From an uncultured virus (IMG/VR IMGVR_UViG_3300031539_000017) (taxonomy: Duplodnaviria > Heunggongvirae > Uroviricota > Caudoviricetes), in the IMG/VR virus record IMGVR_UViG_3300031539_000017: DNA of 64,000 nucleotides. One strand, given 5' to 3'. A model generated the notes under the pieces. The model did no database searches, had not been told where the DNA came from, and worked only from the letters and a program-made list of their open reading frames with translations. How positions within the stretch are numbered: position 1 is the stretch's first letter; each line of letters starts with the position of its first letter. The position numbers and the translations under genes were made by a program. Positions 8,805-62,015 of the stretch are shown here, piece by piece.

Positions 8805-9008
8805 ATGAGAGGATATGCAGTAGATCCCATGGCGTTGGCTGATTCGCTGGGCATACCGCGAGACGAGGTGGCGTCGTTGTTAGAATCAAGCGATCACCCC
8901 TATGATTGCCGGTGCAACGAGTGCCGTGAGTGGTGGCGCCAGATGGGGCCTGACCCCGATACCGGTGAACATGGGCCGTTCACTGCGGAGGAGGTAAGGG
9001 GTGACTAA
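8805..9008 (+). CDS. Hypothetical protein
   Basis: GGAGG RBS, HPYDCRCNEC motif. Confidence 0.55.
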   Translation: MRGYAVDPMALADSLGIPRDEVASLLESSDHPYDCRCNECREWWRQMGPDPDTGEHGPFTAEEVRGD

Positions 9009-52034: not shown

Positions 52035-52244
52035 ATGTTTGAGATTTTTCAGGGCGTTATTCTTAAATCGGATTGCCGACTAATCATTGTGTTTCGTGAT
52101 GAGGGGTCTATGCAGGCTGAGTTGATAACCCTCAATACTCATGGTCTGTTGGTCCATGCTGAAGGGGGCACTATGTATGTGCCTTGGACCTCAGTCAAGA
52201 CTGTCGAGCTTCTTGATATTCTCGATGATTCTAGTGGGGAATAG
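52035..52244 (+). CDS. Hypothetical protein
   Basis: GGAGG RBS after element copy 7. Confidence 0.55.
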   Translation: MFEIFQGVILKSDCRLIIVFRDEGSMQAELITLNTHGLLVHAEGGTMYVPWTSVKTVELLDILDDSSGE

Positions 52245-53446
52245 TGGAGCCAAGGGGCATTCTCTACTTTGCCATAGGTAGTAGGTATCTCATGCAGGCA
52301 CAGAAGGCCGTGGCTCGCGTGCGGGACGTGTGGCCTGGGATGCCGTGCGCTATCTGGACGGAGCGGGTACCTGGTCCGGTGATGCTATCCCGTATGGAGG
52401 CCTGGCGGCAATCACCCTTCGAGCGCACCCTGGCCCTGGATGCAGACGTGTGGCTGGCGGAGCCGGTGCCGGAGGTCTTTGACTTACTGGACCGCTTCGA
52501 CCTGGCGGCGGCGTATGCCCCCTGGAGAGAGGGTTATCCTGTGAATGTGCCCGATGCCTTCCCGGAGCACAACTGCGGCGTGGTGGCCTTTCGTAAAGAT
52601 GTGATCCTACTGGATTTCATGAACGATTGGGAGCGGAGGTTCCGGGAGCGCTACAGGGACATAGAGGAGATCAAGGGTTTCCACAATGATCAACCCGCTT
52701 TCCGGGAGGCCCTGTACTACTCAAGGGTGCGTGTCGCTACCCTGCCAGCGGAGTACAACTGGCGGGGTGTGGGTTATGTTTGGGGGAAAGTGAAGGTGCT
52801 GCACGTCAGGCGCCCGCCCCAGATGGTAGAACGGGAGATCAATGAGCGACTTGGACCAAGGGTGTGTATGAACTGGAAGATTCACTATGGAGAGGAGTTC
52901 CACCCGTCGATGATGCTGGAGGCGATAGACCTGACTGGCAAGGACTACCATCACGAGCTAGAGGACATAGACACGCTGAAACGGCTGGCGGGGATGCTGC
53001 CCAGGGATGCGGTGGTAGTCAACATCGGGGCTGCGTTTGGTACGAGCGCCCTAGCACTCCTGGAGGCCCGTGAGGACCTGTTCGTGTTCTCTGTGGATGT
53101 GAAGCCCTGTGAGAAGGAGAGGGAACACCTGGCGCAGTCGGGCGTGGACCCGGCGCGGTGCGTGCGGGTGCTGGGTCGCTCTCAGGAGATAGGGTGGCCG
53201 CGTGTGGTGGATATGGTTTTTCTGGATGGTTCCCATGCCCGCAAGGACGTGATAGCGGACATCGAGGCATGGCTGCCCCGAATCAAGCCAGGGGGCATCG
53301 TGGCGGCTGATGACTACGAGAAGGGCTGCACACCTGCGGTGAAGCCTGTGGTGGATGAGGTGCTGATGGGCAAGTATGAGATGATCCTGCACGTGGGGGA
53401 TATCGTGGCATTCAGGATACAGGGAGGGGACGATGGCAGAGCGTGA
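52244..53446 (+). CDS. GT8-like glycosyltransferase fused to methyltransferase
   Basis: SPFERTLALDAD, NCGV, DQPAFR, LPAEYN; then VNIGAAFG, LDGSH, DDY. Confidence 0.8.
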   Translation: MEPRGILYFAIGSRYLMQAQKAVARVRDVWPGMPCAIWTERVPGPVMLSRMEAWRQSPFERTLALDADVWLAEPVPEVFDLLDRFDLAAAYAPWREGYPVNVPDAFPEHNCGVVAFRKDVILLDFMNDWERRFRERYRDIEEIKGFHNDQPAFREALYYSRVRVATLPAEYNWRGVGYVWGKVKVLHVRRPPQMVEREINERLGPRVCMNWKIHYGEEFHPSMMLEAIDLTGKDYHHELEDIDTLKRLAGMLPRDAVVVNIGAAFGTSALALLEAREDLFVFSVDVKPCEKEREHLAQSGVDPARCVRVLGRSQEIGWPRVVDMVFLDGSHARKDVIADIEAWLPRIKPGGIVAADDYEKGCTPAVKPVVDEVLMGKYEMILHVGDIVAFRIQGGDDGRA

Positions 53447-53624
53447 GTGCCTGGAGTGCGGCTGCGTGCGCGGCGAGTACCTGTGCCGGGTGGCGGAGCA
53501 TCTCTGGGGCAGGGTAGAGTCGTTCTACCAGCGCAGCCAGAGGATGGGCTTCGATGAGAAGACCTGGAGCGATTATCAAGGGGCGCTGGCAGACTACAAG
53601 GCGCATTTCGGCAGGGAATCATGA
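53433..53624 (+). CDS. Hypothetical protein
   Basis: GGAGG RBS, overlaps neighbours. Confidence 0.5.
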   Translation: MAERECLECGCVRGEYLCRVAEHLWGRVESFYQRSQRMGFDEKTWSDYQGALADYKAHFGRES

Positions 53625-54427
53625 ATGAGCAAGACCTCAAGGACGCCTTCGCGGCCCTGGAGCCGATGAGTGACGAGGCCCCGCCCCGGTACACGTGGGA
53701 GCGGCACCGGTGGGAGATGCGCCGCCATGTGCGCCGGGATCCCATTGCGGGGTTCTTGAACTGGCCCACGGTGACGGCTACCATGTTCGCGGGGGAGACC
53801 CCGTTTATCCGTTCTGAGCTGGAGGCCCTGCGGGCGCAGCCTGATTGGGCGATCCCTTGGCGGCCTGCCATCGCGGATAGCGGAATAGGCAATGCCCCAC
53901 GGATGTCCGGCGACACTTCCACGAACGCCAATATGATTCATCAGGCTTTTCACCTGATGATGTGGAACAAGGCCACGCTCAAGGAGCTGCGGGACCTGGA
54001 GACCATCACGGAGTTCGGTGGGGGCTATGGGGCCATGTGCCTGATAGCGTCAAGATTGGGGTTCCGGGGCACCTACCGCATGGTGGACTTCCCCGAGATG
54101 CGGCTTCTGCAGACCTACTACCTGTCACAGCACGAGCTGGGGTGCACGGTGGAGTTTCGGGAGGTCATCGGCCCACCGCGTTCAGACCTGTTGGTGGCTT
54201 GTTATTCGCTGAGTGAGGTCCCGCTAGAGGATCGCAAGCCGCTTCTCGGGGACGGGCGCGCTGACCATGCGGCCAATAGCTATCTCTTTGCCATGCAGGA
54301 TAAGTGGGATGACGTGGACAATCTGGATTGGGTGAGGCAGTTTACTATGTGGGACAGGGACGACTTGCTGTGGTCCATCTTCCCGATGGTGAGGCCGGGG
54401 CACTGGTACGCGATGGGCAATGCCTAA
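53621..54427 (+). CDS. Putative sugar O-methyltransferase
   Basis: EFGGGYG, VDFPE..LQ.YYL, SLSE motifs. Confidence 0.7.
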   Translation: MNEQDLKDAFAALEPMSDEAPPRYTWERHRWEMRRHVRRDPIAGFLNWPTVTATMFAGETPFIRSELEALRAQPDWAIPWRPAIADSGIGNAPRMSGDTSTNANMIHQAFHLMMWNKATLKELRDLETITEFGGGYGAMCLIASRLGFRGTYRMVDFPEMRLLQTYYLSQHELGCTVEFREVIGPPRSDLLVACYSLSEVPLEDRKPLLGDGRADHAANSYLFAMQDKWDDVDNLDWVRQFTMWDRDDLLWSIFPMVRPGHWYAMGNA

Positions 54428-54491
54428 ATGGATCAACGACCTAAATGCACAGGTCATAGAGTGTGATGAAGGTGGAGGATGAGGAGGAGAA

Positions 54492-54638
54492 ATGAATGAG
54501 ATAGTTGCGGTGCTCGTGGTGGTCTTGGTGCTGTTCTTTGTAGGGGTGCCCCTGGCGATGGTGCTCATTTCTCTTGGATGGCGCTGGCTTGACTTCGTAA
54601 ATAGCAAGCTACATATCGTCAAGGGTCCGTGGGACTAG
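54492..54638 (+). CDS. Small membrane protein (48 aa)
   Basis: GAGGAGG RBS; MNEIVAVLVVVLVLFFVGVPLAMVLISLGW... Confidence 0.6.
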   Translation: MNEIVAVLVVVLVLFFVGVPLAMVLISLGWRWLDFVNSKLHIVKGPWD

Positions 54639-54704
54639 ATGCCCAAGTGGACTGAGGATCTAAACGCATAGGTCATAGAACGCGACGAAGGTGGAGGATG
54701 AGGG

Positions 54705-54977
54705 ATGACCGAGAATGATGCTAGGTACTGTCTCAAGCTGCTACGAGATGAGTTGCCAGACGGGATAGACAAGGTTCTTGCCGAAGACCCCGACGTGGTA
54801 GTGCTGGCTAAGGAGTTGATGGAAGAGCATACCCTCATGGACGAAGAGGGAGTTCTGTGGGTGAACTTAGAGCACGGGCTGCTAGAGGGCATCTTAGAGG
54901 TGCAGTTCGGCATTCGCCTGACGCCCGGTGGCTATGAGTGGGTAGGAGGACAATGCCTAAGTGGATCGACGATCTAA
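54705..54977 (+). CDS. Hypothetical protein
   Basis: GGAGG RBS supplied by repeat copy 2. Confidence 0.55.
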   Translation: MTENDARYCLKLLRDELPDGIDKVLAEDPDVVVLAKELMEEHTLMDEEGVLWVNLEHGLLEGILEVQFGIRLTPGGYEWVGGQCLSGSTI

Positions 54978-55246
54978 ACCTAGAGGTCATAGAACGCGAT
55001 GAGGAACGATGTATCCTCTGTCCTGCGCCAGCGATGTATAAGCCGCACCACATCGTCCCCAGGTCTAGGGGCAAGGGGCGGAGTCCGAAACTATGGCGCT
55101 TAGAGAATATGTGTTGCGTCTGCCCACTACACCATGACAATACCAAGGCACTGCGAATCAGGTTGCTTGAGAGAATGGTTGAGCTTGGGCATGATATGAC
55201 TTGGGCCAGAGAATTTGTCGGCGAGATCGCGGGGGTGACATGCTAA
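54953..55246 (+). CDS. HNH endonuclease
   Basis: RD..RCILC...HHIVPRS.G...LEN...CPLHH. Confidence 0.8.
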   Translation: MPKWIDDLNLEVIERDEERCILCPAPAMYKPHHIVPRSRGKGRSPKLWRLENMCCVCPLHHDNTKALRIRLLERMVELGHDMTWAREFVGEIAGVTC

Positions 55247-56637
55247 TCTGCGCTGACTCTAGGGCTGCGCTGGCAGAGATAGAAGAGGGGAGCGTACAGT
55301 GCTGCATCACCTCTCCGCCATACTGGAGCCTCCGCAGGTACGGCGATGCAGCGGAGATGGTCTTTGGCGGCGATGCTGGCTGTGAGCATGAGTGGGGGCA
55401 GCACATTGTCAATCGGCGGGGCGCAGGCGGCGAGAGGGAATATGGCAGCTCTGATAGCGGTGTGGGCCGGGGGCCGGCACCCGAGTTGCCCTCCTCCAAT
55501 ATCTGCTCCCTCTGCGGCTGCTGGCGCGGTCAGTTCGGATTAGAGCCCACCCCCGAGATGTACGTGGAGCACATGCTGGACTTTTTGCGGGCAATATGGC
55601 GGGTGCTGAGGGATGATGGGACGCTGTGGCTGAATCTCGGGGACTCTTATGCGAGTCAGGGGGGGGCTAAGACAGAAGCCTCATACGCCTCAGCAGGCAC
55701 GGGCAATAGTGCCAATCGGACGCTGCGGGTTGATGCCCGGAGACCACCCGGAGGCCTCAAGCCCAAGGACCTCGTGATGATCCCCTTCCGCGTGGCGTTG
55801 GCTGCGCAGGCAGACGGGTGGTGGGTGCGGTCGGTGATCATCTGGTCCAAGCCTAACCCCATGCCAGAGTCAGTGCGGGACAGGCCGACAACGGCGCATG
55901 AATACGTGTTCCTCTTGACGAAGAGCAAGACCTACTTCTACGATGCCGATGCGATAAGGGAGCCATGTACCATGACGCCCCAGGCCAGGTTGACTCCACG
56001 AGACATGAAGAATGGCAAGGATAGCCAGCGGGCCGTTCACCGTAGACCACAATACCAGCTCCGAGATGAGCCAGGGGTAGAGGGCAACCCATTAGGCCGC
56101 AACAAGCGTACGGTCTGGGAGATAGCCACGGCCCCATATCCCGGCGCCCACTACGCAACATTTCCTCCCAAGCTAGTAGAGCCGATGATACTGACCACGC
56201 CCACGAAGGTCTGCGCTGAGTGCGGGGCTGGGTGGGAGAGGGTGGTTCAGAAGCCCGACATGAAGGAGCGACCAAAGCGCAACCAGCAGAAATACGGAGC
56301 AGAGCGCATCAATGTTGGCTGGGGTGACTACCCGCAGAGCGCGGGGCAGGAGTGGCAAAAGTGGCGCAACGAGAACCCTGACGTAACCCTTGGCTTCCGC
56401 CCCACCTGCTCCTGTGATGCTGAGACCAAGCCCGCCGTCATCTTAGACCCCTTCTGTGGTAGGGGCACCGTTCTCAAAGAGGCAAGAGCGCATGGCCGGG
56501 ACTGGATAGGCATAGACGTCGATCCTCAATCTATCAAGCTGGCGGAGGAATGGCTGGGGCTAGGGGAGGTTACCTATGAGATTGACGAAGAGCATTGGAT
56601 ACAGCCGCAATTAGTCAATGAGGAGTCAGCACAATGA
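55240..56637 (+). CDS. DNA methyltransferase (beta class, SPPY, probably N4-cytosine)
   Basis: ITSPPYW, LNLGDSY, IWSKPNPMPES, HYATFP, LDPFCGRGT. Confidence 0.9.
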   Translation: MLICADSRAALAEIEEGSVQCCITSPPYWSLRRYGDAAEMVFGGDAGCEHEWGQHIVNRRGAGGEREYGSSDSGVGRGPAPELPSSNICSLCGCWRGQFGLEPTPEMYVEHMLDFLRAIWRVLRDDGTLWLNLGDSYASQGGAKTEASYASAGTGNSANRTLRVDARRPPGGLKPKDLVMIPFRVALAAQADGWWVRSVIIWSKPNPMPESVRDRPTTAHEYVFLLTKSKTYFYDADAIREPCTMTPQARLTPRDMKNGKDSQRAVHRRPQYQLRDEPGVEGNPLGRNKRTVWEIATAPYPGAHYATFPPKLVEPMILTTPTKVCAECGAGWERVVQKPDMKERPKRNQQKYGAERINVGWGDYPQSAGQEWQKWRNENPDVTLGFRPTCSCDAETKPAVILDPFCGRGTVLKEARAHGRDWIGIDVDPQSIKLAEEWLGLGEVTYEIDEEHWIQPQLVNEESAQ

Positions 56638-59303: not shown

Positions 59304-60171
59304 TGAGTTCCGCCCGGCCAGCCAGGGTTACACTATGCCGCCGCACTGCCCGCCGGAGGGGTACGGCGTGGAGCAGGACTTTGACGCTTGGTTACGGACG
59401 CAAGGGGAGCTTTTGACTGATTCCGCGGAGGCCGACTGGCTGTACCTCCCGGTGTTCTGGAACCGGCTCTTTATTGCCACCTGGAAGTGGGCGCAGGATG
59501 AGGCCGCCATAGCCCGCTGCGCCGATTGGCTGGCGGCTCTCAGGGATAGTTTGGGCGGCTTTGAGAGGGTGTTCACCGTCTGTGAATGGGACCTGACCAC
59601 GGAGCGGCAGGAGCTGGGCACGGACGGGCTGACTGTGTTCACGGCGGGGCGTCGGGATCGCGCAGGCCTTGATATACCGTTGCTCTGTGCCCCACATGGC
59701 GTCCCGCCGGTTTCATACGGCAAGCAATACCTGGCGTCATTTGTGGGCAACATTGGGACGTCAGGCTGGCGTCAGGGTATGTTGGAGGCCCTGGAGGGCT
59801 ACGGCGGGGTCCTCATCGAGCACGCACAGAAGGGGCCAGCCTATTTCTGTGATGTGATGACCAAGAGCTACGTGGCCCTGGCCCCCAGGGGTCACCGGGG
59901 GCAGAGCTTCCGGTTCTACGAGGCCATGGACATGGGTGTGGCCCCGGTCCTGATCGGTGATATGGATACCCGGCCCTTTAAGAATTGGGTCAATTGGGAC
60001 TCATGCTCTTACTACGTTCCTGACGCCTCGGAACTTCCCGGCTTTATTGACAACCTGGACCTGGAGGACGCGTTACGCAAGGGCGCGGAGGCGGCACGGG
60101 TATACCATGAGTGTCTGCGGTTCGGGCGGTGGTGCATGTTTGTGGTGCCTGAGCTGCTGAGCGTGCCGTAA
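59278..60171 (+). CDS. Exostosin-like (GT47) glycosyltransferase
   Basis: ASFVG, KSYVALAPRG..SFRFYEAM..G..PVLI. Confidence 0.8.
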   Translation: MIYPIPVPDEFRPASQGYTMPPHCPPEGYGVEQDFDAWLRTQGELLTDSAEADWLYLPVFWNRLFIATWKWAQDEAAIARCADWLAALRDSLGGFERVFTVCEWDLTTERQELGTDGLTVFTAGRRDRAGLDIPLLCAPHGVPPVSYGKQYLASFVGNIGTSGWRQGMLEALEGYGGVLIEHAQKGPAYFCDVMTKSYVALAPRGHRGQSFRFYEAMDMGVAPVLIGDMDTRPFKNWVNWDSCSYYVPDASELPGFIDNLDLEDALRKGAEAARVYHECLRFGRWCMFVVPELLSVP

Positions 60172-60211
60172 CTCCTGCCACCTTGCCAGGGGTGGCGCGT
60201 TTCCTCCTTTT

Positions 60212-60243
60212 GGGGGCGGGTGGGGCCGGGCCTGCCCGCCCCC
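60212..60243. other. GC-rich intergenic hairpin at end of late region
   Basis: GGGGGCGGGTGGG / CCTGCCCGCCCCC stem. Confidence 0.45.
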
Positions 60244-60445
60244 TCCTATAAGGATTTCGGCCCGGTTTTCCCTCTTGGTTGGTATGTAAATGGCGCTTTT
60301 CCTGTTTATCCGCGACCCTGCCCCCAAACGTCACCAGAGACACCCAGGTCACCCAGGGCGGTGTTGGGGTGTGAATAGGTGGCTTGATATCCCCAAATGC
60401 TTAGAGCGGCTTGTGGTGAATCATGTTAGAATACTAAACTGGTAC

Positions 60446-60474
60446 TTGACAAAATATAAACGATGTGTTATAAT
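60446..60474 (+). promoter_or_regulatory. Consensus sigma70 promoter, probably early
   Basis: TTGACA-17 nt-TATAAT with TGn extension, AT-rich context. Confidence 0.9.
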
Positions 60475-60531
60475 ATAGGTAAGATGAGGAACCAGAGAGC
60501 AGAGTAACAGGATACCACAGAGGAGGAGACG

Positions 60532-60765
60532 ATGGCAGAGAGAACGGATTACCCAAGGAACCTAGCTGAGATTGCAATACAGGGCGCTATTGCCCAGCTT
60601 GGTCAGGCAGATAGCCTCTTGCAGAGGTATCAGGCTGAGTACGACCTTCTTCACCACGAATTGGGTGATGATGGCGGCACGGAAGCCGCGCCAGCGCGCC
60701 ATGCGGTGGAACAGGCCCTCAATCGTCTGGAATATGCCTTGCAGGAGACTAAGCAACTCTCATAG
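60532..60765 (+). CDS. Hypothetical helical protein
   Basis: AGGAGG RBS, first gene after promoter. Confidence 0.65.
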   Translation: MAERTDYPRNLAEIAIQGAIAQLGQADSLLQRYQAEYDLLHHELGDDGGTEAAPARHAVEQALNRLEYALQETKQLS

Positions 60766-60834
60766 CCGAAACTGGGGTGGAGGCCCCGGTCACCCGCGAT
60801 GCCGCCGTGCGGGTCCGATGAGGCGATGGGCGGC
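60761..60834 (+). ncRNA. Type II hammerhead ribozyme with pseudoknot, variant core CCGAUGA
   Basis: Stem II CATAGCC/GGCGATG, GAAA 60768-60771, stem III CTGGGG/CCCCGG, GUC 60789-60791, stem I ACCCGCG/TGCGGGT, CCGATGA 60815-60821, loop GCCGCC pairs with 3' GGCGGC. Confidence 0.8.
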
Positions 60835-60849
60835 GAGAGGAGGCAACAC

Positions 60850-61512
60850 ATGAAAATCCTGGCAACTGATGAGCAGAGTCTTGCACGCTGGCAGCGCCTA
60901 CGCCCTACACCCAAGCAGATGCTCCGGATGGGCACCAATAAGAAGACATTTCACTGCGTGCGCTTTGGGCAGCTGGAGGCCTGGGGCAACGGGTTCTTCC
61001 TGCTGGTGGGGAACTCGCCGGACGTGCCTATGGAGGATATGACCCAGCGCATGCAGCGGTTCTCGGACTGGTCTGACATGAAGGACCGGCTGCTGACGCC
61101 GGGGGCTTGCCCTGTGGAGCCGCTGCTGTACCTGGAGGCTGACCGCTACAGCGTGCAGGAGCGCCGCTTGCTGGTGATGGAGATGCGGTCGCCCACGGAC
61201 AGCGATGTGATCATGGAGCACCTTACCGTCAATGCAACCATGGCGCTCTTCATAGAACGTGAGTGCAGGGCGCGGTTCCCCGAGGACTGGATATTGGGCT
61301 GGCGGGGCAACCTGTCGGCGGAGGCCAGGATTCACGGGTGCGCCAAGGTACATCCCAAGCCATTGACGTATTGCGTAAGGGGTCCGGGAGCTGGCTATAC
61401 CGCTGCTGGCGTGCTGATGCCCAGGACGTGGGGGAGTCAGTTGGTGAGCAAGGATGGTAGTGTGGCGCTCCAGTATGATGTGACCCGCAGGGTTTGTTAT
61501 CGAGACGCTTGA
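60850..61512 (+). CDS. Hypothetical protein
   Basis: GAGGAGG RBS, ATG 60850. Confidence 0.65.
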   Translation: MKILATDEQSLARWQRLRPTPKQMLRMGTNKKTFHCVRFGQLEAWGNGFFLLVGNSPDVPMEDMTQRMQRFSDWSDMKDRLLTPGACPVEPLLYLEADRYSVQERRLLVMEMRSPTDSDVIMEHLTVNATMALFIERECRARFPEDWILGWRGNLSAEARIHGCAKVHPKPLTYCVRGPGAGYTAAGVLMPRTWGSQLVSKDGSVALQYDVTRRVCYRDA

Positions 61513-61528
61513 TGAAAGGGGATAGAAG

Positions 61529-61771
61529 ATGACTGGCGCTGAGGTGATTGTATACGGGTTTGCTGCTGTTGGGTTCATAATAGTACTCTGCGTAGCACTA
61601 GGGGCTACAGAGGTAGTCGCCGAAGGTATGGTTGAGGATCGCAGGGAACAAGCTGAAATAGATACTCGGAAGGTGATTCAGGAACTTGAGATAGCCCTGC
61701 GCCACGCACGTCAGCCAGAGCACATTCTACTGCCCGCTATGATGGAGGTGAACGATGTCGCACATAGTTGA
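61529..61771 (+). CDS. Small membrane protein
   Basis: N-terminal hydrophobic helix. Confidence 0.55.
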   Translation: MTGAEVIVYGFAAVGFIIVLCVALGATEVVAEGMVEDRREQAEIDTRKVIQELEIALRHARQPEHILLPAMMEVNDVAHS

Positions 61772-62015
61772 TCCGCGCAATGTGAGGCCGGGGGACCTGA
61801 AGCCTGGCGATGTAATGATAAGAACGGTGGCGCTTCATGTGTTGCCGGACTACACGGGAGGCCGGTTGATGTACCCGATGTACCTGTGCCCGTGGCCGGA
61901 TTCATCCCTTGTAGATGGTGTGCCCCAGGGCGCACGCATGGAGGGCAAGCCTGAGACCATGCAAGAGATATTCCCGGTGGTGGGCAATGCTGGGGCCAAG
62001 CCGGACCCGATGTGA
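61755..62015 (+). CDS. Hypothetical protein
   Basis: GGAGG RBS. Confidence 0.6.
   Translation: MSHIVDPRNVRPGDLKPGDVMIRTVALHVLPDYTGGRLMYPMYLCPWPDSSLVDGVPQGARMEGKPETMQEIFPVVGNAGAKPDPM

What the first reader, a model, noticed from the sequence alone, without database searches (positions are those of the whole stretch)
60761..60834. Pseudoknotted type II hammerhead ribozyme with U4C core variant in the early transcript
Seen: all three stems form around GAAA and a GUC cleavage triplet, with the cut predicted after 60791. Loop I GCCGCC (60801-60806) is complementary to the 3' tail GGCGGC (60829-60834). The core reads CCGAUGA rather than CUGAUGA. It overlaps the stop of the first gene after the consensus promoter and ends just before the next RBS. 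Established: type II hammerheads with loop-tail pseudoknots occur in phages and U4 is normally conserved. Inference: it processes the early mRNA between genes 1 and 2, perhaps at a reduced rate, and strict-core searches would miss it.
Basis: partly seen in the sequence, partly recalled or inferred. Interest (0 to 1): 0.75.

Follow-up and report, generated by a model that had tools for sequence, protein, structure and literature searches.

The report
Phage hammerhead ribozyme with C4 core
A small self-cutting RNA of a known class (type II hammerhead) lies between the first two genes behind a strong promoter of an uncultured tailed phage; it has a C where a U is normally fixed, a change that recurs in many phage hammerheads, and cutting has not been tested.

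Summary
At 60763-60834 (+) every described part is present: GAAA, a 6-bp stem III, GUC (cut after 60791), a 6-bp stem I, core CCGAUGA (C4 = 60816), and loop I GCCGCC complementary to tail GGCGGC, between the gene-1 stop and the gene-2 RBS. Rfam's Hammerhead_II model matches full length at 27.5 bits, below its cut-off of 37, so default annotation misses it.

It is not a chance look-alike. Homologous elements sit before the same gene in related phages. Two have canonical CUGA cores (about 35 bits) and a neighbouring copy reaches 37.9 bits. Stems covary: 7 pairs change on both sides against 1.7 in shuffles.

C4 is not unique. An IMG/VR scan gave 66 intact-looking C4 type II hammerheads against 3 with A4 or G4. 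In one stem-I subfamily 11 of 59 copies are C4.

Most likely it is a working, probably slower, hammerhead that cuts the early mRNA between genes 1 and 2. Cleavage is inferred, and published mutagenesis says U4 changes reduce activity. This is a known kind with a precedented core variant. Moderate interest.

The parts
60446..60474 (+). Sigma-70-type promoter: TTGACA, 17-nt spacer, TATAAT, with TG before the -10.
   Evidence: 12 of 12 hexamer matches. A near-identical promoter stands directly before the gene-2 homolog in L011.
60532..60765 (+). Gene 1, 77 aa, no family match. Its UAG stop (60763-65) overlaps the first base of stem II.
60765..60767 (+). Stem II 5' strand, GCC (positions 11.3-11.1).
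   Evidence: Pairs GC, CG and CG are invariant in 6 of 6 distinct sequences.
60768..60771 (+). Core GAAA (G12 A13 A14 A15.1).
   Evidence: Sister copies carry GAUAA, the U13a insertion described by Perreault et al. 2011.
60772..60789 (+). Stem III hairpin: CUGGGG, loop UGGAGG, CCCCGG.
   Evidence: In one search, 2 of its 6 pairs change on both sides and 2 on one side. A marine-sediment contig has CGGGCC-UGUC-GGCCCG at this place.
60790..60791 (+). U16.1 and C17. The predicted cut is after 60791, between 60791 and 60792.
   Evidence: Position in the Rfam alignment. Cleavage itself was not tested.
60792..60814 (+). Stem I hairpin: ACCCGC, loop GAUGCCGCCGU, GCGGGU. Loop bases 60801-06 (GCCGCC) form the pseudoknot strand.
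   Evidence: In one search, 4 of 7 pairs change on both sides, for example A-U to G-C at the pair next to the core in L013 and L014.
60815..60821 (+). Core strand CCGAUGA. C3, G5, A6, G8 and A9 are present. Position 4 (60816) is C instead of U.
   Evidence: Orthologous copies L013 and L014 read CUGAGGA, and the upstream copy in L009 reads CUGAUGA.
60822..60824 (+). Stem II 3' strand, GGC (positions 10.1-10.3).
60829..60834 (+). 3' tail GGCGGC, which pairs with loop I GCCGCC to form the pseudoknot.
   Evidence: Kept in 5 of 6 distinct sequences. The L009 upstream copy has its own pair, UGGC with GCCG.
60835..60843 (+). Ribosome-binding site GAGAGGAGG of gene 2, directly behind the pseudoknot tail.
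   Evidence: An RBS lies within 1-10 nt of the tail in every relative.
60850..61512 (+). Gene 2, 220 aa, no family match. It marks the conserved neighbourhood.

Best explanation
The element is a type II hammerhead by descent, with stem II open and a loop I/3'-tail pseudoknot holding stems I and II parallel. It lies in the early polycistronic transcript of a tailed phage.

After transcription it most likely folds and cuts itself after C17 (60791). That would separate the gene-1 message, which ends in the stem III hairpin with a 2',3'-cyclic phosphate, from the gene-2 message, which starts with a 5'-OH at the stem I hairpin just upstream of its RBS.

The U-to-C change at core position 4 probably slows but does not abolish cutting. 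The same change is common among otherwise intact phage type II hammerheads.

Shown here: the anatomy, the homology to canonical-core copies in the same slot, the stem covariation, and the recurrence of C4. Inferred: cleavage, its rate, and its effect on the stability or translation of the two messages.
For: 1. Full-length match to RF02276.

2. Five of 7 assessable distinct gene-2 loci have an intact-looking copy directly upstream of gene 2: the window, the sister phage L002, the L009 type, L013 and L014. L013 and L014 have canonical GAAA and CUGAGGA cores and score 35.1 and 34.9 bits. A second copy 290 nt upstream in L009/L010 scores 37.9 bits, at or above the gathering score of 37.

3. On 6 distinct sequences and 23 pairs, 94.9% of cells pair, against 85.6% in shuffles and 27-42% with slid partners. 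Seven pairs change on both sides against 1.7 expected (0 of 500 shuffles reach this).

4. A contig from another study matches 60789-60842 with 0 differences. It has an unrelated upstream gene and downstream gene and a stem III with three both-sided changes that still pair.

5. Apart from C4, every conserved core base and the A15.1-U16.1 and G10.1-C11.1 pairs are intact.

6. C4 is specifically tolerated in nature. The IMG/VR pattern scan with C4 gave 118 stretches. Of these, 66 have both stems of at least 4 bp (59 distinct), and 52 of the 66 also have at least 4 nt of loop I/tail complementarity. The same pattern with A or G at position 4 gave 44 stretches, of which 3 pass.

7. In the stem-I subfamily UGCCGG/CCGGCA, 11 of 59 copies (10 of 49 distinct) are C4, sometimes beside U4 copies in one contig. 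In the capped scan that left the core free, no other single substitution in the CUGANGA strand appeared among hammerhead-like hits.

8. C4 copies cluster: 6 of 10 have a C4 nearest neighbour, against 1.9 expected (33 of 2000 shuffles reach this). One neighbouring C4 pair differs by a compensated pseudoknot change.

9. Literature. Perreault et al. 2011 (PMC3088659; sections 6-8 and 17 and passages of the Discussion read) describe the type II pseudoknot and hammerheads flanking phage genes. They state that a U4C viroid variant with much reduced in vitro activity still supports infectivity.
Against: - No cleavage assay and no RNA data exist. No RNA run holds the stretch.
- Mutagenesis argues that position 4 matters. 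In a tertiary-stabilised type III hammerhead, all single and double mutants in the CUGA turn except the C:G swap had low activity (PMC9901934, passages). Perreault et al. say U4C 'considerably decreases activity in vitro'.
- The Rfam score is below the gathering score.
- The slot can lose the ribozyme. L012 has a copy with CAAA and CAGAUGC cores and a C.A mismatch, yet it keeps loop I and the tail. L011 has none.
- Stem I, loop I and the tail are identical at every base across neighbours that are only 50-65% identical in protein. That is more than a hammerhead needs and could point to another role.
- The three C4 copies of this particular subfamily share an identical 37-54-nt block, so they may be one recently spread allele rather than long-term retention.
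Confidence: 0.62

Rival explanations
1. It is a hammerhead by descent whose catalysis is lost or negligible because of U4C. It is kept for a structural role: a stable pseudoknotted hairpin in front of the gene-2 RBS that shapes translation initiation or protects the mRNA, without cutting.
For: L012 has a destroyed core (G12C, U4A, A9C) yet keeps loop I and the tail letter for letter and sits in front of another RBS. Stem I, loop I and the tail are invariant at every base in 5 of 6 distinct sequences. Mutagenesis shows low activity for CUGA-turn mutants.
Against: The window copy keeps all other core bases, and stem III covaries. A non-catalytic pseudoknot would need neither. C4 copies across IMG/VR keep GAAA, GUC and both stems, while A4 and G4 copies are almost absent (66 against 3). 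That fits a specifically tolerated change better than general loss of catalysis.
Confidence: 0.24
2. It is a recently inactivated pseudo-ribozyme on its way to decay, with no present function.
For: Decay and loss occur in this slot: the decayed copy in L012, a 5' remnant at L014 1123-1150, and no element at all in L011. The C4 allele is an identical block in three contexts, so it may be young.
Against: The allele occurs in at least three different gene contexts and two studies without any further core damage. C4 makes up about a fifth of a separate subfamily and forms clusters with compensated changes.
Confidence: 0.09
3. The conserved stretch is coding. The ATG in loop I (60799) is in frame with gene 2, so the element would be an N-terminal extension (MPPCGSDEA...) rather than an RNA element.
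For: ORF 60799-61512 is open. The loop-I ATG is also in frame with gene 2 in the sister phage and in L013 and L014, at spacings of 51, 60 and 51 nt. One homolog was called at 240 aa.
Against: There is no Shine-Dalgarno sequence before 60799, but a strong one lies 6 nt before ATG 60850. There is no synonymous variation in the first five codons across distant relatives, and the differences that do occur are the base-pair-compensating ones. In L012 the same element precedes a different gene out of frame, and the L009 upstream copy has no ATG. Five of 6 homologous proteins are 217-224 aa.
Confidence: 0.03
4. It is a chance resemblance to the hammerhead consensus in G+C-rich intergenic DNA.
For: The Rfam score is sub-threshold, and sub-threshold hits at E <= 10 occur in 11 of 14 control genomes. 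The fold z-score is only -1.52.
Against: The element is conserved in the same slot together with canonical-core orthologs and covarying stems.
Confidence: 0.01

Closest known systems
Type II hammerhead ribozymes with a loop I/3'-tail pseudoknot (Rfam RF02276 Hammerhead_II; Perreault et al. 2011, PMC3088659)
   Same: The permutation is the same: stem II open, with stems I and III capped. GAAA, GUC and the C-GA-GA core strand are present. There is a 6-bp Watson-Crick pseudoknot between loop I and the tail just after a short stem II. The location is intergenic in a phage operon.
   Different: C instead of U at core position 4. The score of 27.5 bits is under the family's gathering score of 37. 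Stem I, loop I and the tail are unusually invariant in sequence among its relatives.
Natural U4C hammerhead variant of a viroid (Ambros & Flores 1998, known here only as cited in Perreault et al. 2011; the paper itself is not held)
   Same: The same single core substitution. It is reported to lower in vitro activity strongly yet to be sufficient in vivo.
   Different: That case is a hammerhead of a replicating circular plant-pathogen RNA. This one is a type II pseudoknotted copy in a DNA phage mRNA. Here C4 is one of many such copies in phage contigs.
Clustered hammerheads flanking single genes in prophages (Perreault et al. 2011, section 6 and the Figure 3 legend)
   Same: Relatives carry two copies flanking one small gene (L009/L010, 290 nt apart). 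The flanked genes differ between phages.
   Different: The window itself has a single copy. The homology between the two sister phages starts exactly at the element.
U13a core variant: a U inserted in GAAA (Perreault et al. 2011, section 8)
   Same: The sister-phage copy and the L009 upstream copy read GAUAA.
   Different: The window copy has plain GAAA. The sister copy combines U13a with C4, a double variant for which I found no test in print.

Membership tests
Hammerhead ribozyme, type II (RF02276) | Three helices around the core in the type II order: 5' stem II strand, GAAA, stem III hairpin, cleavage triplet, stem I hairpin, CUGANGA, 3' stem II strand. | tested here: met
   (sequence). (full model 1-66 aligned). 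(own model, 82.7 bits).
Hammerhead ribozyme, type II (RF02276) | Core G12 A13 A14, the A15.1-U16.1 pair, H17 at the cleavage site, and the G10.1-C11.1 pair. | tested here: met
   GAAA at 60768-71. A60771 pairs with U60790. C17 is 60791. G60822 pairs with C60767.
Hammerhead ribozyme, type II (RF02276) | Core strand C3 U4 G5 A6 N7 G8 A9. | tested here: not met
   The strand reads CCGAUGA. Five of the 6 fixed bases are present, and position 4 is C. U4C is a documented natural exception in a viroid and recurs in phage copies. Strict consensus membership fails on this one base.
Hammerhead ribozyme, type II (RF02276) | Score at or above Rfam's gathering threshold of 37 bits. | tested here: not met
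   27.5 bits and no hit at gathering. Orthologs score 34.9-35.1 bits, and a paralogous copy in a relative scores 37.9 bits.
Hammerhead ribozyme, type II (RF02276) | Loop I/3'-tail pseudoknot of 4 or more pairs, typical of the type II consensus. | tested here: met
   GCCGCC at 60801-06 with GGCGGC at 60829-34. Kept in 5 of 6 distinct relatives. The consensus is described in Perreault et al. 2011.
Hammerhead ribozyme, type II (RF02276) | Homology to canonical members, with helices supported by covariation. | tested here: met
   Seven pairs change on both sides, and 0 of 500 shuffles reach that. The sample is only 6 distinct sequences, and the alignment was fitted to the model.
Hammerhead ribozyme, type II (RF02276) | Site-specific self-cleavage giving a 2',3'-cyclic phosphate and a 5'-OH. 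| not testable with these tools
   No RNA run holds the stretch. This needs a bench assay.

The most novel reading that the evidence does not exclude
C at core position 4 is not damage but a second, selected state of phage type II hammerheads. On this reading, C4 copies are active with different kinetics or a different pH or metal dependence, because a cytosine cannot give the N3-H contact of the U-turn unless it is protonated or uses its amino group. Phages would then mix U4 and C4 copies within one operon to set different processing rates at different gene junctions. The conserved 3' half plus RBS, a 54-nt block identical across unrelated flanks, would double as a junction at which gene cassettes are exchanged.
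Probability: 0.22. Interest if true: 0.6.

Novelty: new variant of a known kind. Interest (0 to 1): 0.4.

Why it matters
For this phage, the element gives a concrete, testable model of how the first two early messages are separated.

More generally, position 4 is treated as fixed in the hammerhead consensus, and Rfam's threshold drops such copies. Yet among phage contigs C4 copies are common:
- 66 intact-looking copies in one pattern scan, against 3 with A4 or G4.
- About 1 in 5 copies in one subfamily.

If these copies cut, annotation pipelines undercount phage ribozymes, and the U-turn requirement at position 4 is softer in pseudoknot-stabilised type II scaffolds than mutagenesis of other scaffolds suggests. 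If they do not cut, phages keep many dead hammerhead folds for another reason. Either answer can be had from a simple in vitro assay.

Tried and rejected
- **Rfam at gathering threshold over the window:** 0 hits.
- **blastn of 60400-61600 against 50,697 phage records:** no match.
- **Pfam and PHROGs for genes 1 and 2 and their neighbours:** nothing usable.
- **The genome search with RF02276:** it found only the window copy in the own record and none in the sister record, although cmscan scores those copies at 28.2 bits. Its first look misses the U13a copies. L009, L010, L012 and L014 are not held there.
- **Pattern with fixed loop I plus CCGATGA in IMG/VR:** only the two sister-phage contigs.
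- **The 17-mer from stem I and loop I:** Of the 153 matches, 2 have hammerhead features and both are the sister phage. The rest are chance hits in G+C-rich DNA.
- **RNA evidence:** no RNA holder is listed for the stretch. The laid runs are DNA contigs only.
- **Literature searches:**
  - 'hammerhead' + 'U4C' finds only Perreault et al. 2011.
  - 'CYGANGA' finds only PMC13481778.
  - 'hammerhead' + 'CCGAUGA' finds one unrelated therapeutic paper.
  - The three bare core words return 9,322 papers, useless.
  - I therefore found no paper in the held library that describes C4 type II phage hammerheads as a class.
- **Perreault Dataset S1 (the alignments):** it gave no hit even for CUGAUGA, so its text cannot be searched here. 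It may already contain C4 examples. Supplementary Figures S6 and S7 came out as scrambled letters. Figure 5A is not held.
- **Ambros & Flores 1998:** not held.
- **Terminator reading:** rejected. No terminator-like site lies in 59800-62000.
- **Weak own-model hit at window 8936-9008 (20.5 bits):** it lacks the hammerhead core and was not pursued.
- **Earlier notes of this scan:** none on this genome or sequence.

Full report
**Observation**

- The UAG stop of gene 1 (60763-65) runs into GCC (60765-67), followed by GAAA (60768-71).
- Stem III is a 6-bp hairpin, CUGGGG/CCCCGG, with loop UGGAGG (60772-89).
- U16.1 and C17 are 60790 and 60791.
- Stem I is a 6-bp hairpin, ACCCGC/GCGGGU, with the 11-nt loop GAUGCCGCCGU (60792-814).
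- The core strand is CCGAUGA (60815-21), followed by GGC (60822-24), a 4-nt spacer and GGCGGC (60829-34).
- GGCGGC is the exact complement of loop bases 60801-06.
- The gene-2 RBS GAGAGGAGG (60835-43) and ATG (60850) follow directly.

Only the 3-bp GCC/GGC is kept in relatives.

**Is it more than chance?**

Taken alone, barely.
- Rfam finds nothing at gathering thresholds.
- In E-value mode RF02276 (Hammerhead_II) aligns over its whole length at 27.5 bits, against a cut-off of 37. E is 0.001 for the 301 bases searched and 1.1e-4 for the whole 143-kb record.
- 11 of 14 control genomes also give sub-threshold hits at E <= 10.
- The minimum-energy fold contains stems I and III, but its energy is not unusual: z = -1.52, and 14 of 200 shuffles fold as well.

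The case therefore rests on comparison with relatives.

**Relatives**

Gene 2 (220 aa, no Pfam or PHROG family) has five homologs at 53-66% identity in the protein search.

Scans with their alignment gave 9 metagenome loci and 2 viral loci.

Of 7 distinct loci with enough upstream DNA, 5 carry an intact-looking hammerhead directly before the gene:
- the window;
- the sister phage (L002 = L003 = L008);
- the L009/L010 type;
- L013;
- L014.

L013 and L014 have canonical cores (GAAA and CUGAGGA) and score 35.1 and 34.9 bits. The pair next to the core changes from A-U in the window to G-C in these two copies.

The sister copy shares the window's C4. It also reads GAUAA. This is the U13a insertion that Perreault et al. 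2011 describe as one that could point outside the core with minimal structural change.

L009/L010 carry a second hammerhead 290 nt upstream, across one small gene. It has CUGAUGA, GAUAA, an unrelated stem I and its own loop/tail complement. At 37.9 bits it passes Rfam's threshold.

The remaining loci:
- L012 has a decayed copy one gene further upstream. It reads CAAA and CAGAUGC and has a C.A mismatch in stem I, yet loop I and the tail are intact.
- L011 has none. There gene 2 follows a near-identical promoter directly.
- L014 also holds a 5' remnant: stop codon, GCC, GAAA, one stem III strand, then an RBS.

**Covariation**

I built a covariance model from four of the copies. It finds all seven copies at 53.6-94 bits. 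In the rest of the window it finds only one weak hit that lacks the core, at 8936-9008 (20.5 bits).

On the model-fitted alignment there are 6 distinct sequences and 23 pairs, including the pseudoknot.
- 94.9% of cells pair, against 85.6% in shuffles and 27-42% with slid partners.
- 7 pairs change on both sides, against 1.7 expected. None of 500 shuffles reaches this.

The sample is small and the alignment was fitted to the structure.

Independent support comes from DNA contigs of other runs. A marine-sediment contig from another study matches 60789-60842 without a single difference, so it includes C4, the tail and the RBS. Its stem III is different but still fully paired (CGGGCC-UGUC-GGCCCG), and its flanking genes are different.

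**Genome context**

The window belongs to a 143,142-bp virus record.

A self-comparison shows that the record is two collinear, related phage genomes joined head to tail. Positions 1-67.5 kb match 77.5-141.5 kb at 70-94% identity. The window copy and the 'sister' copy (record position 53614-53687) are therefore orthologs in two co-assembled phages.

The homology between the two phages resumes exactly at the first base of the hammerhead, and the upstream genes are unrelated.

The phage is tailed, with a terminase, a tape measure protein and tail proteins, and all genes lie on the + strand.

A perfect TTGACA-17-TATAAT promoter with TG lies 58 nt before gene 1. 'Early transcript' is thus a reasonable inference, but an unproven one.

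**How unusual is C4?**

In print:
- Perreault et al. write that the core matches the consensus 'almost without exception'. They cite a U4C viroid variant that loses much in vitro activity yet supports infectivity.
- A comprehensive mutagenesis of a type III hammerhead found low activity for all CUGA-turn mutants except the C:G swap.
- A 2026 virome survey uses a CYGANGA descriptor and notes C/U degeneracy at that position. This follows from the descriptor and was not tested there.

Scans of IMG/VR run here:

| Scan | Stretches found | Result |
|---|---|---|
| Type II layout with GCC/GGC stem II and C4 | 118 | 66 have both stems of at least 4 bp from the core (59 distinct); 52 of the 66 also have at least 4 nt of loop/tail complementarity |
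| Same pattern with A or G at position 4 | 44 | 3 pass (1 with A4, 2 with G4) |
| Subfamily with stem I UGCCGG/CCGGCA, core CYGANGA (complete scan) | 59 | 48 U4 and 11 C4 (39 and 10 distinct); both states occur in the same contigs |
| Same subfamily with the core left free (capped scan) | 115 | New hammerhead-like cores were forms with one extra base after A9 (49 U4, 2 C4); no other single substitution in the strand was seen |

C4 copies also cluster. Six of 10 have a C4 nearest neighbour, against 1.9 expected, and 33 of 2000 shuffles reach this. One neighbouring C4 pair differs by a compensated pseudoknot change.

Even so, the contrast of 66 against 3 is far beyond transition bias. It argues that C at position 4 is specifically tolerated in this scaffold.

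**Mechanism**

The most likely mechanism (confidence about 0.6) is as follows.
- The RNA folds co-transcriptionally.
- The pseudoknot aligns stems I and II.
- The ribozyme cuts after C17, probably more slowly than its U4 relatives.
- The gene-1 message is left capped by the stem III hairpin and a cyclic phosphate.
- The gene-2 message begins with a 5'-OH and the stem I/pseudoknot structure in front of its RBS.

The consequences for stability or translation are inference.

The main rival (about 0.24) is a catalytically dead descendant kept as a structured leader. It is suggested by L012 and by the letter-perfect conservation of stem I, loop I and the tail.

A decaying relic (about 0.09), a coding N-terminal extension from the in-frame loop-I ATG (about 0.03) and chance (about 0.01) are less likely. 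The reasons are given under Rival explanations.

**Verdict**

By descent and architecture this is a type II pseudoknotted hammerhead of the phage kind described in 2011. It fails the strict consensus at one base and fails Rfam's threshold, so I file it as a variant, not a plain member.

U4C has a viroid precedent, and I now see it recurring in phage contigs. The single element is therefore not a surprise.

The modestly new point is that C4 looks like a common, tolerated state in phage type II hammerheads. I found no paper in the held library stating this. Perreault's Dataset S1, which could not be searched as text, may already hold such examples.

Noticed in passing
Whole record G000:C1 1-143142 (the window is 65757-129756): The 143-kb 'complete' virus record is two collinear, related phage genomes joined head to tail. 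Positions 1-67.5 kb match 77.5-141.5 kb in 35 blocks at 70-94% identity. It is probably a chimeric assembly of two co-occurring relatives, so the completeness estimate of 100% is misleading. An IMG/VR record of 69,345 bp carries the gene-2 paralog at the same coordinates, 52209-55850, as the first half.
   Followed up: partly
Window 60763 (G000 126519) and G000 53614; window 60789-60842: The hammerhead sits at mosaic junctions. Homology between the two sister phages starts exactly at its first base. A contig from another study shares only the 54-nt block 60789-60842 (3' half plus RBS), with unrelated flanks on both sides. The element may act as a recombination junction for small gene cassettes.
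   Followed up: partly
L012:1200-1272: A decayed hammerhead copy (CAAA, CAGAUGC, GUU, and a C.A mismatch in stem I) keeps loop I and the pseudoknot tail letter for letter and precedes a different small gene.
   Followed up: partly
L014:1123-1150: A truncated remnant: stop codon, GCC, GAAA and one stem III strand run straight into an RBS, as if the rest of a hammerhead had been deleted.
   Followed up: no
Loci L348-L440 (IMG/VR): In the UGCCGG/CCGGCA stem-I subfamily, many copies carry one extra base, usually U, between A9 and stem II. Counts are CUGACGAU 20, CUGAUGAU 16, CUGAAGAU 10 and others 5, including 2 with C4 as well. The form is as common as the plain 7-nt core in the part of IMG/VR scanned.
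   Followed up: no
L319 (IMG/VR): One C4 copy also reads GAUAC where GAAAC is expected, so it has a second core deviation.
   Followed up: no
Window 60799-60852: The ATG inside loop I is in frame with gene 2 here, in the sister phage and in L013 and L014, at spacings of 51, 60 and 51 nt. It is not in frame in L012, and gene callers sometimes take the longer ORF.
   Followed up: partly
Window 8936-9008 (+): A weak hit of my own model (20.5 bits, E = 0.0025). It is two hairpins followed by an RBS-like GGAGGAGG, with no hammerhead core. It may be a far-decayed relative or noise.
   Followed up: no
Window 60446-60474 and L011:215-243: Nearly the same consensus promoter (TTGACA ... TGTGTTATAAT) heads the operon in the window and in L011. 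In L011 it drives the gene-2 homolog directly, without gene 1 or a hammerhead.
   Followed up: no
The genome search on G000 and G001: The genome-wide RF02276 search missed the copies with the U13a insertion that cmscan scores at 28.2 bits, giving 0 matches in the sister record. A blank from that tool is therefore weak evidence for variant-core ribozymes.
   Followed up: yes
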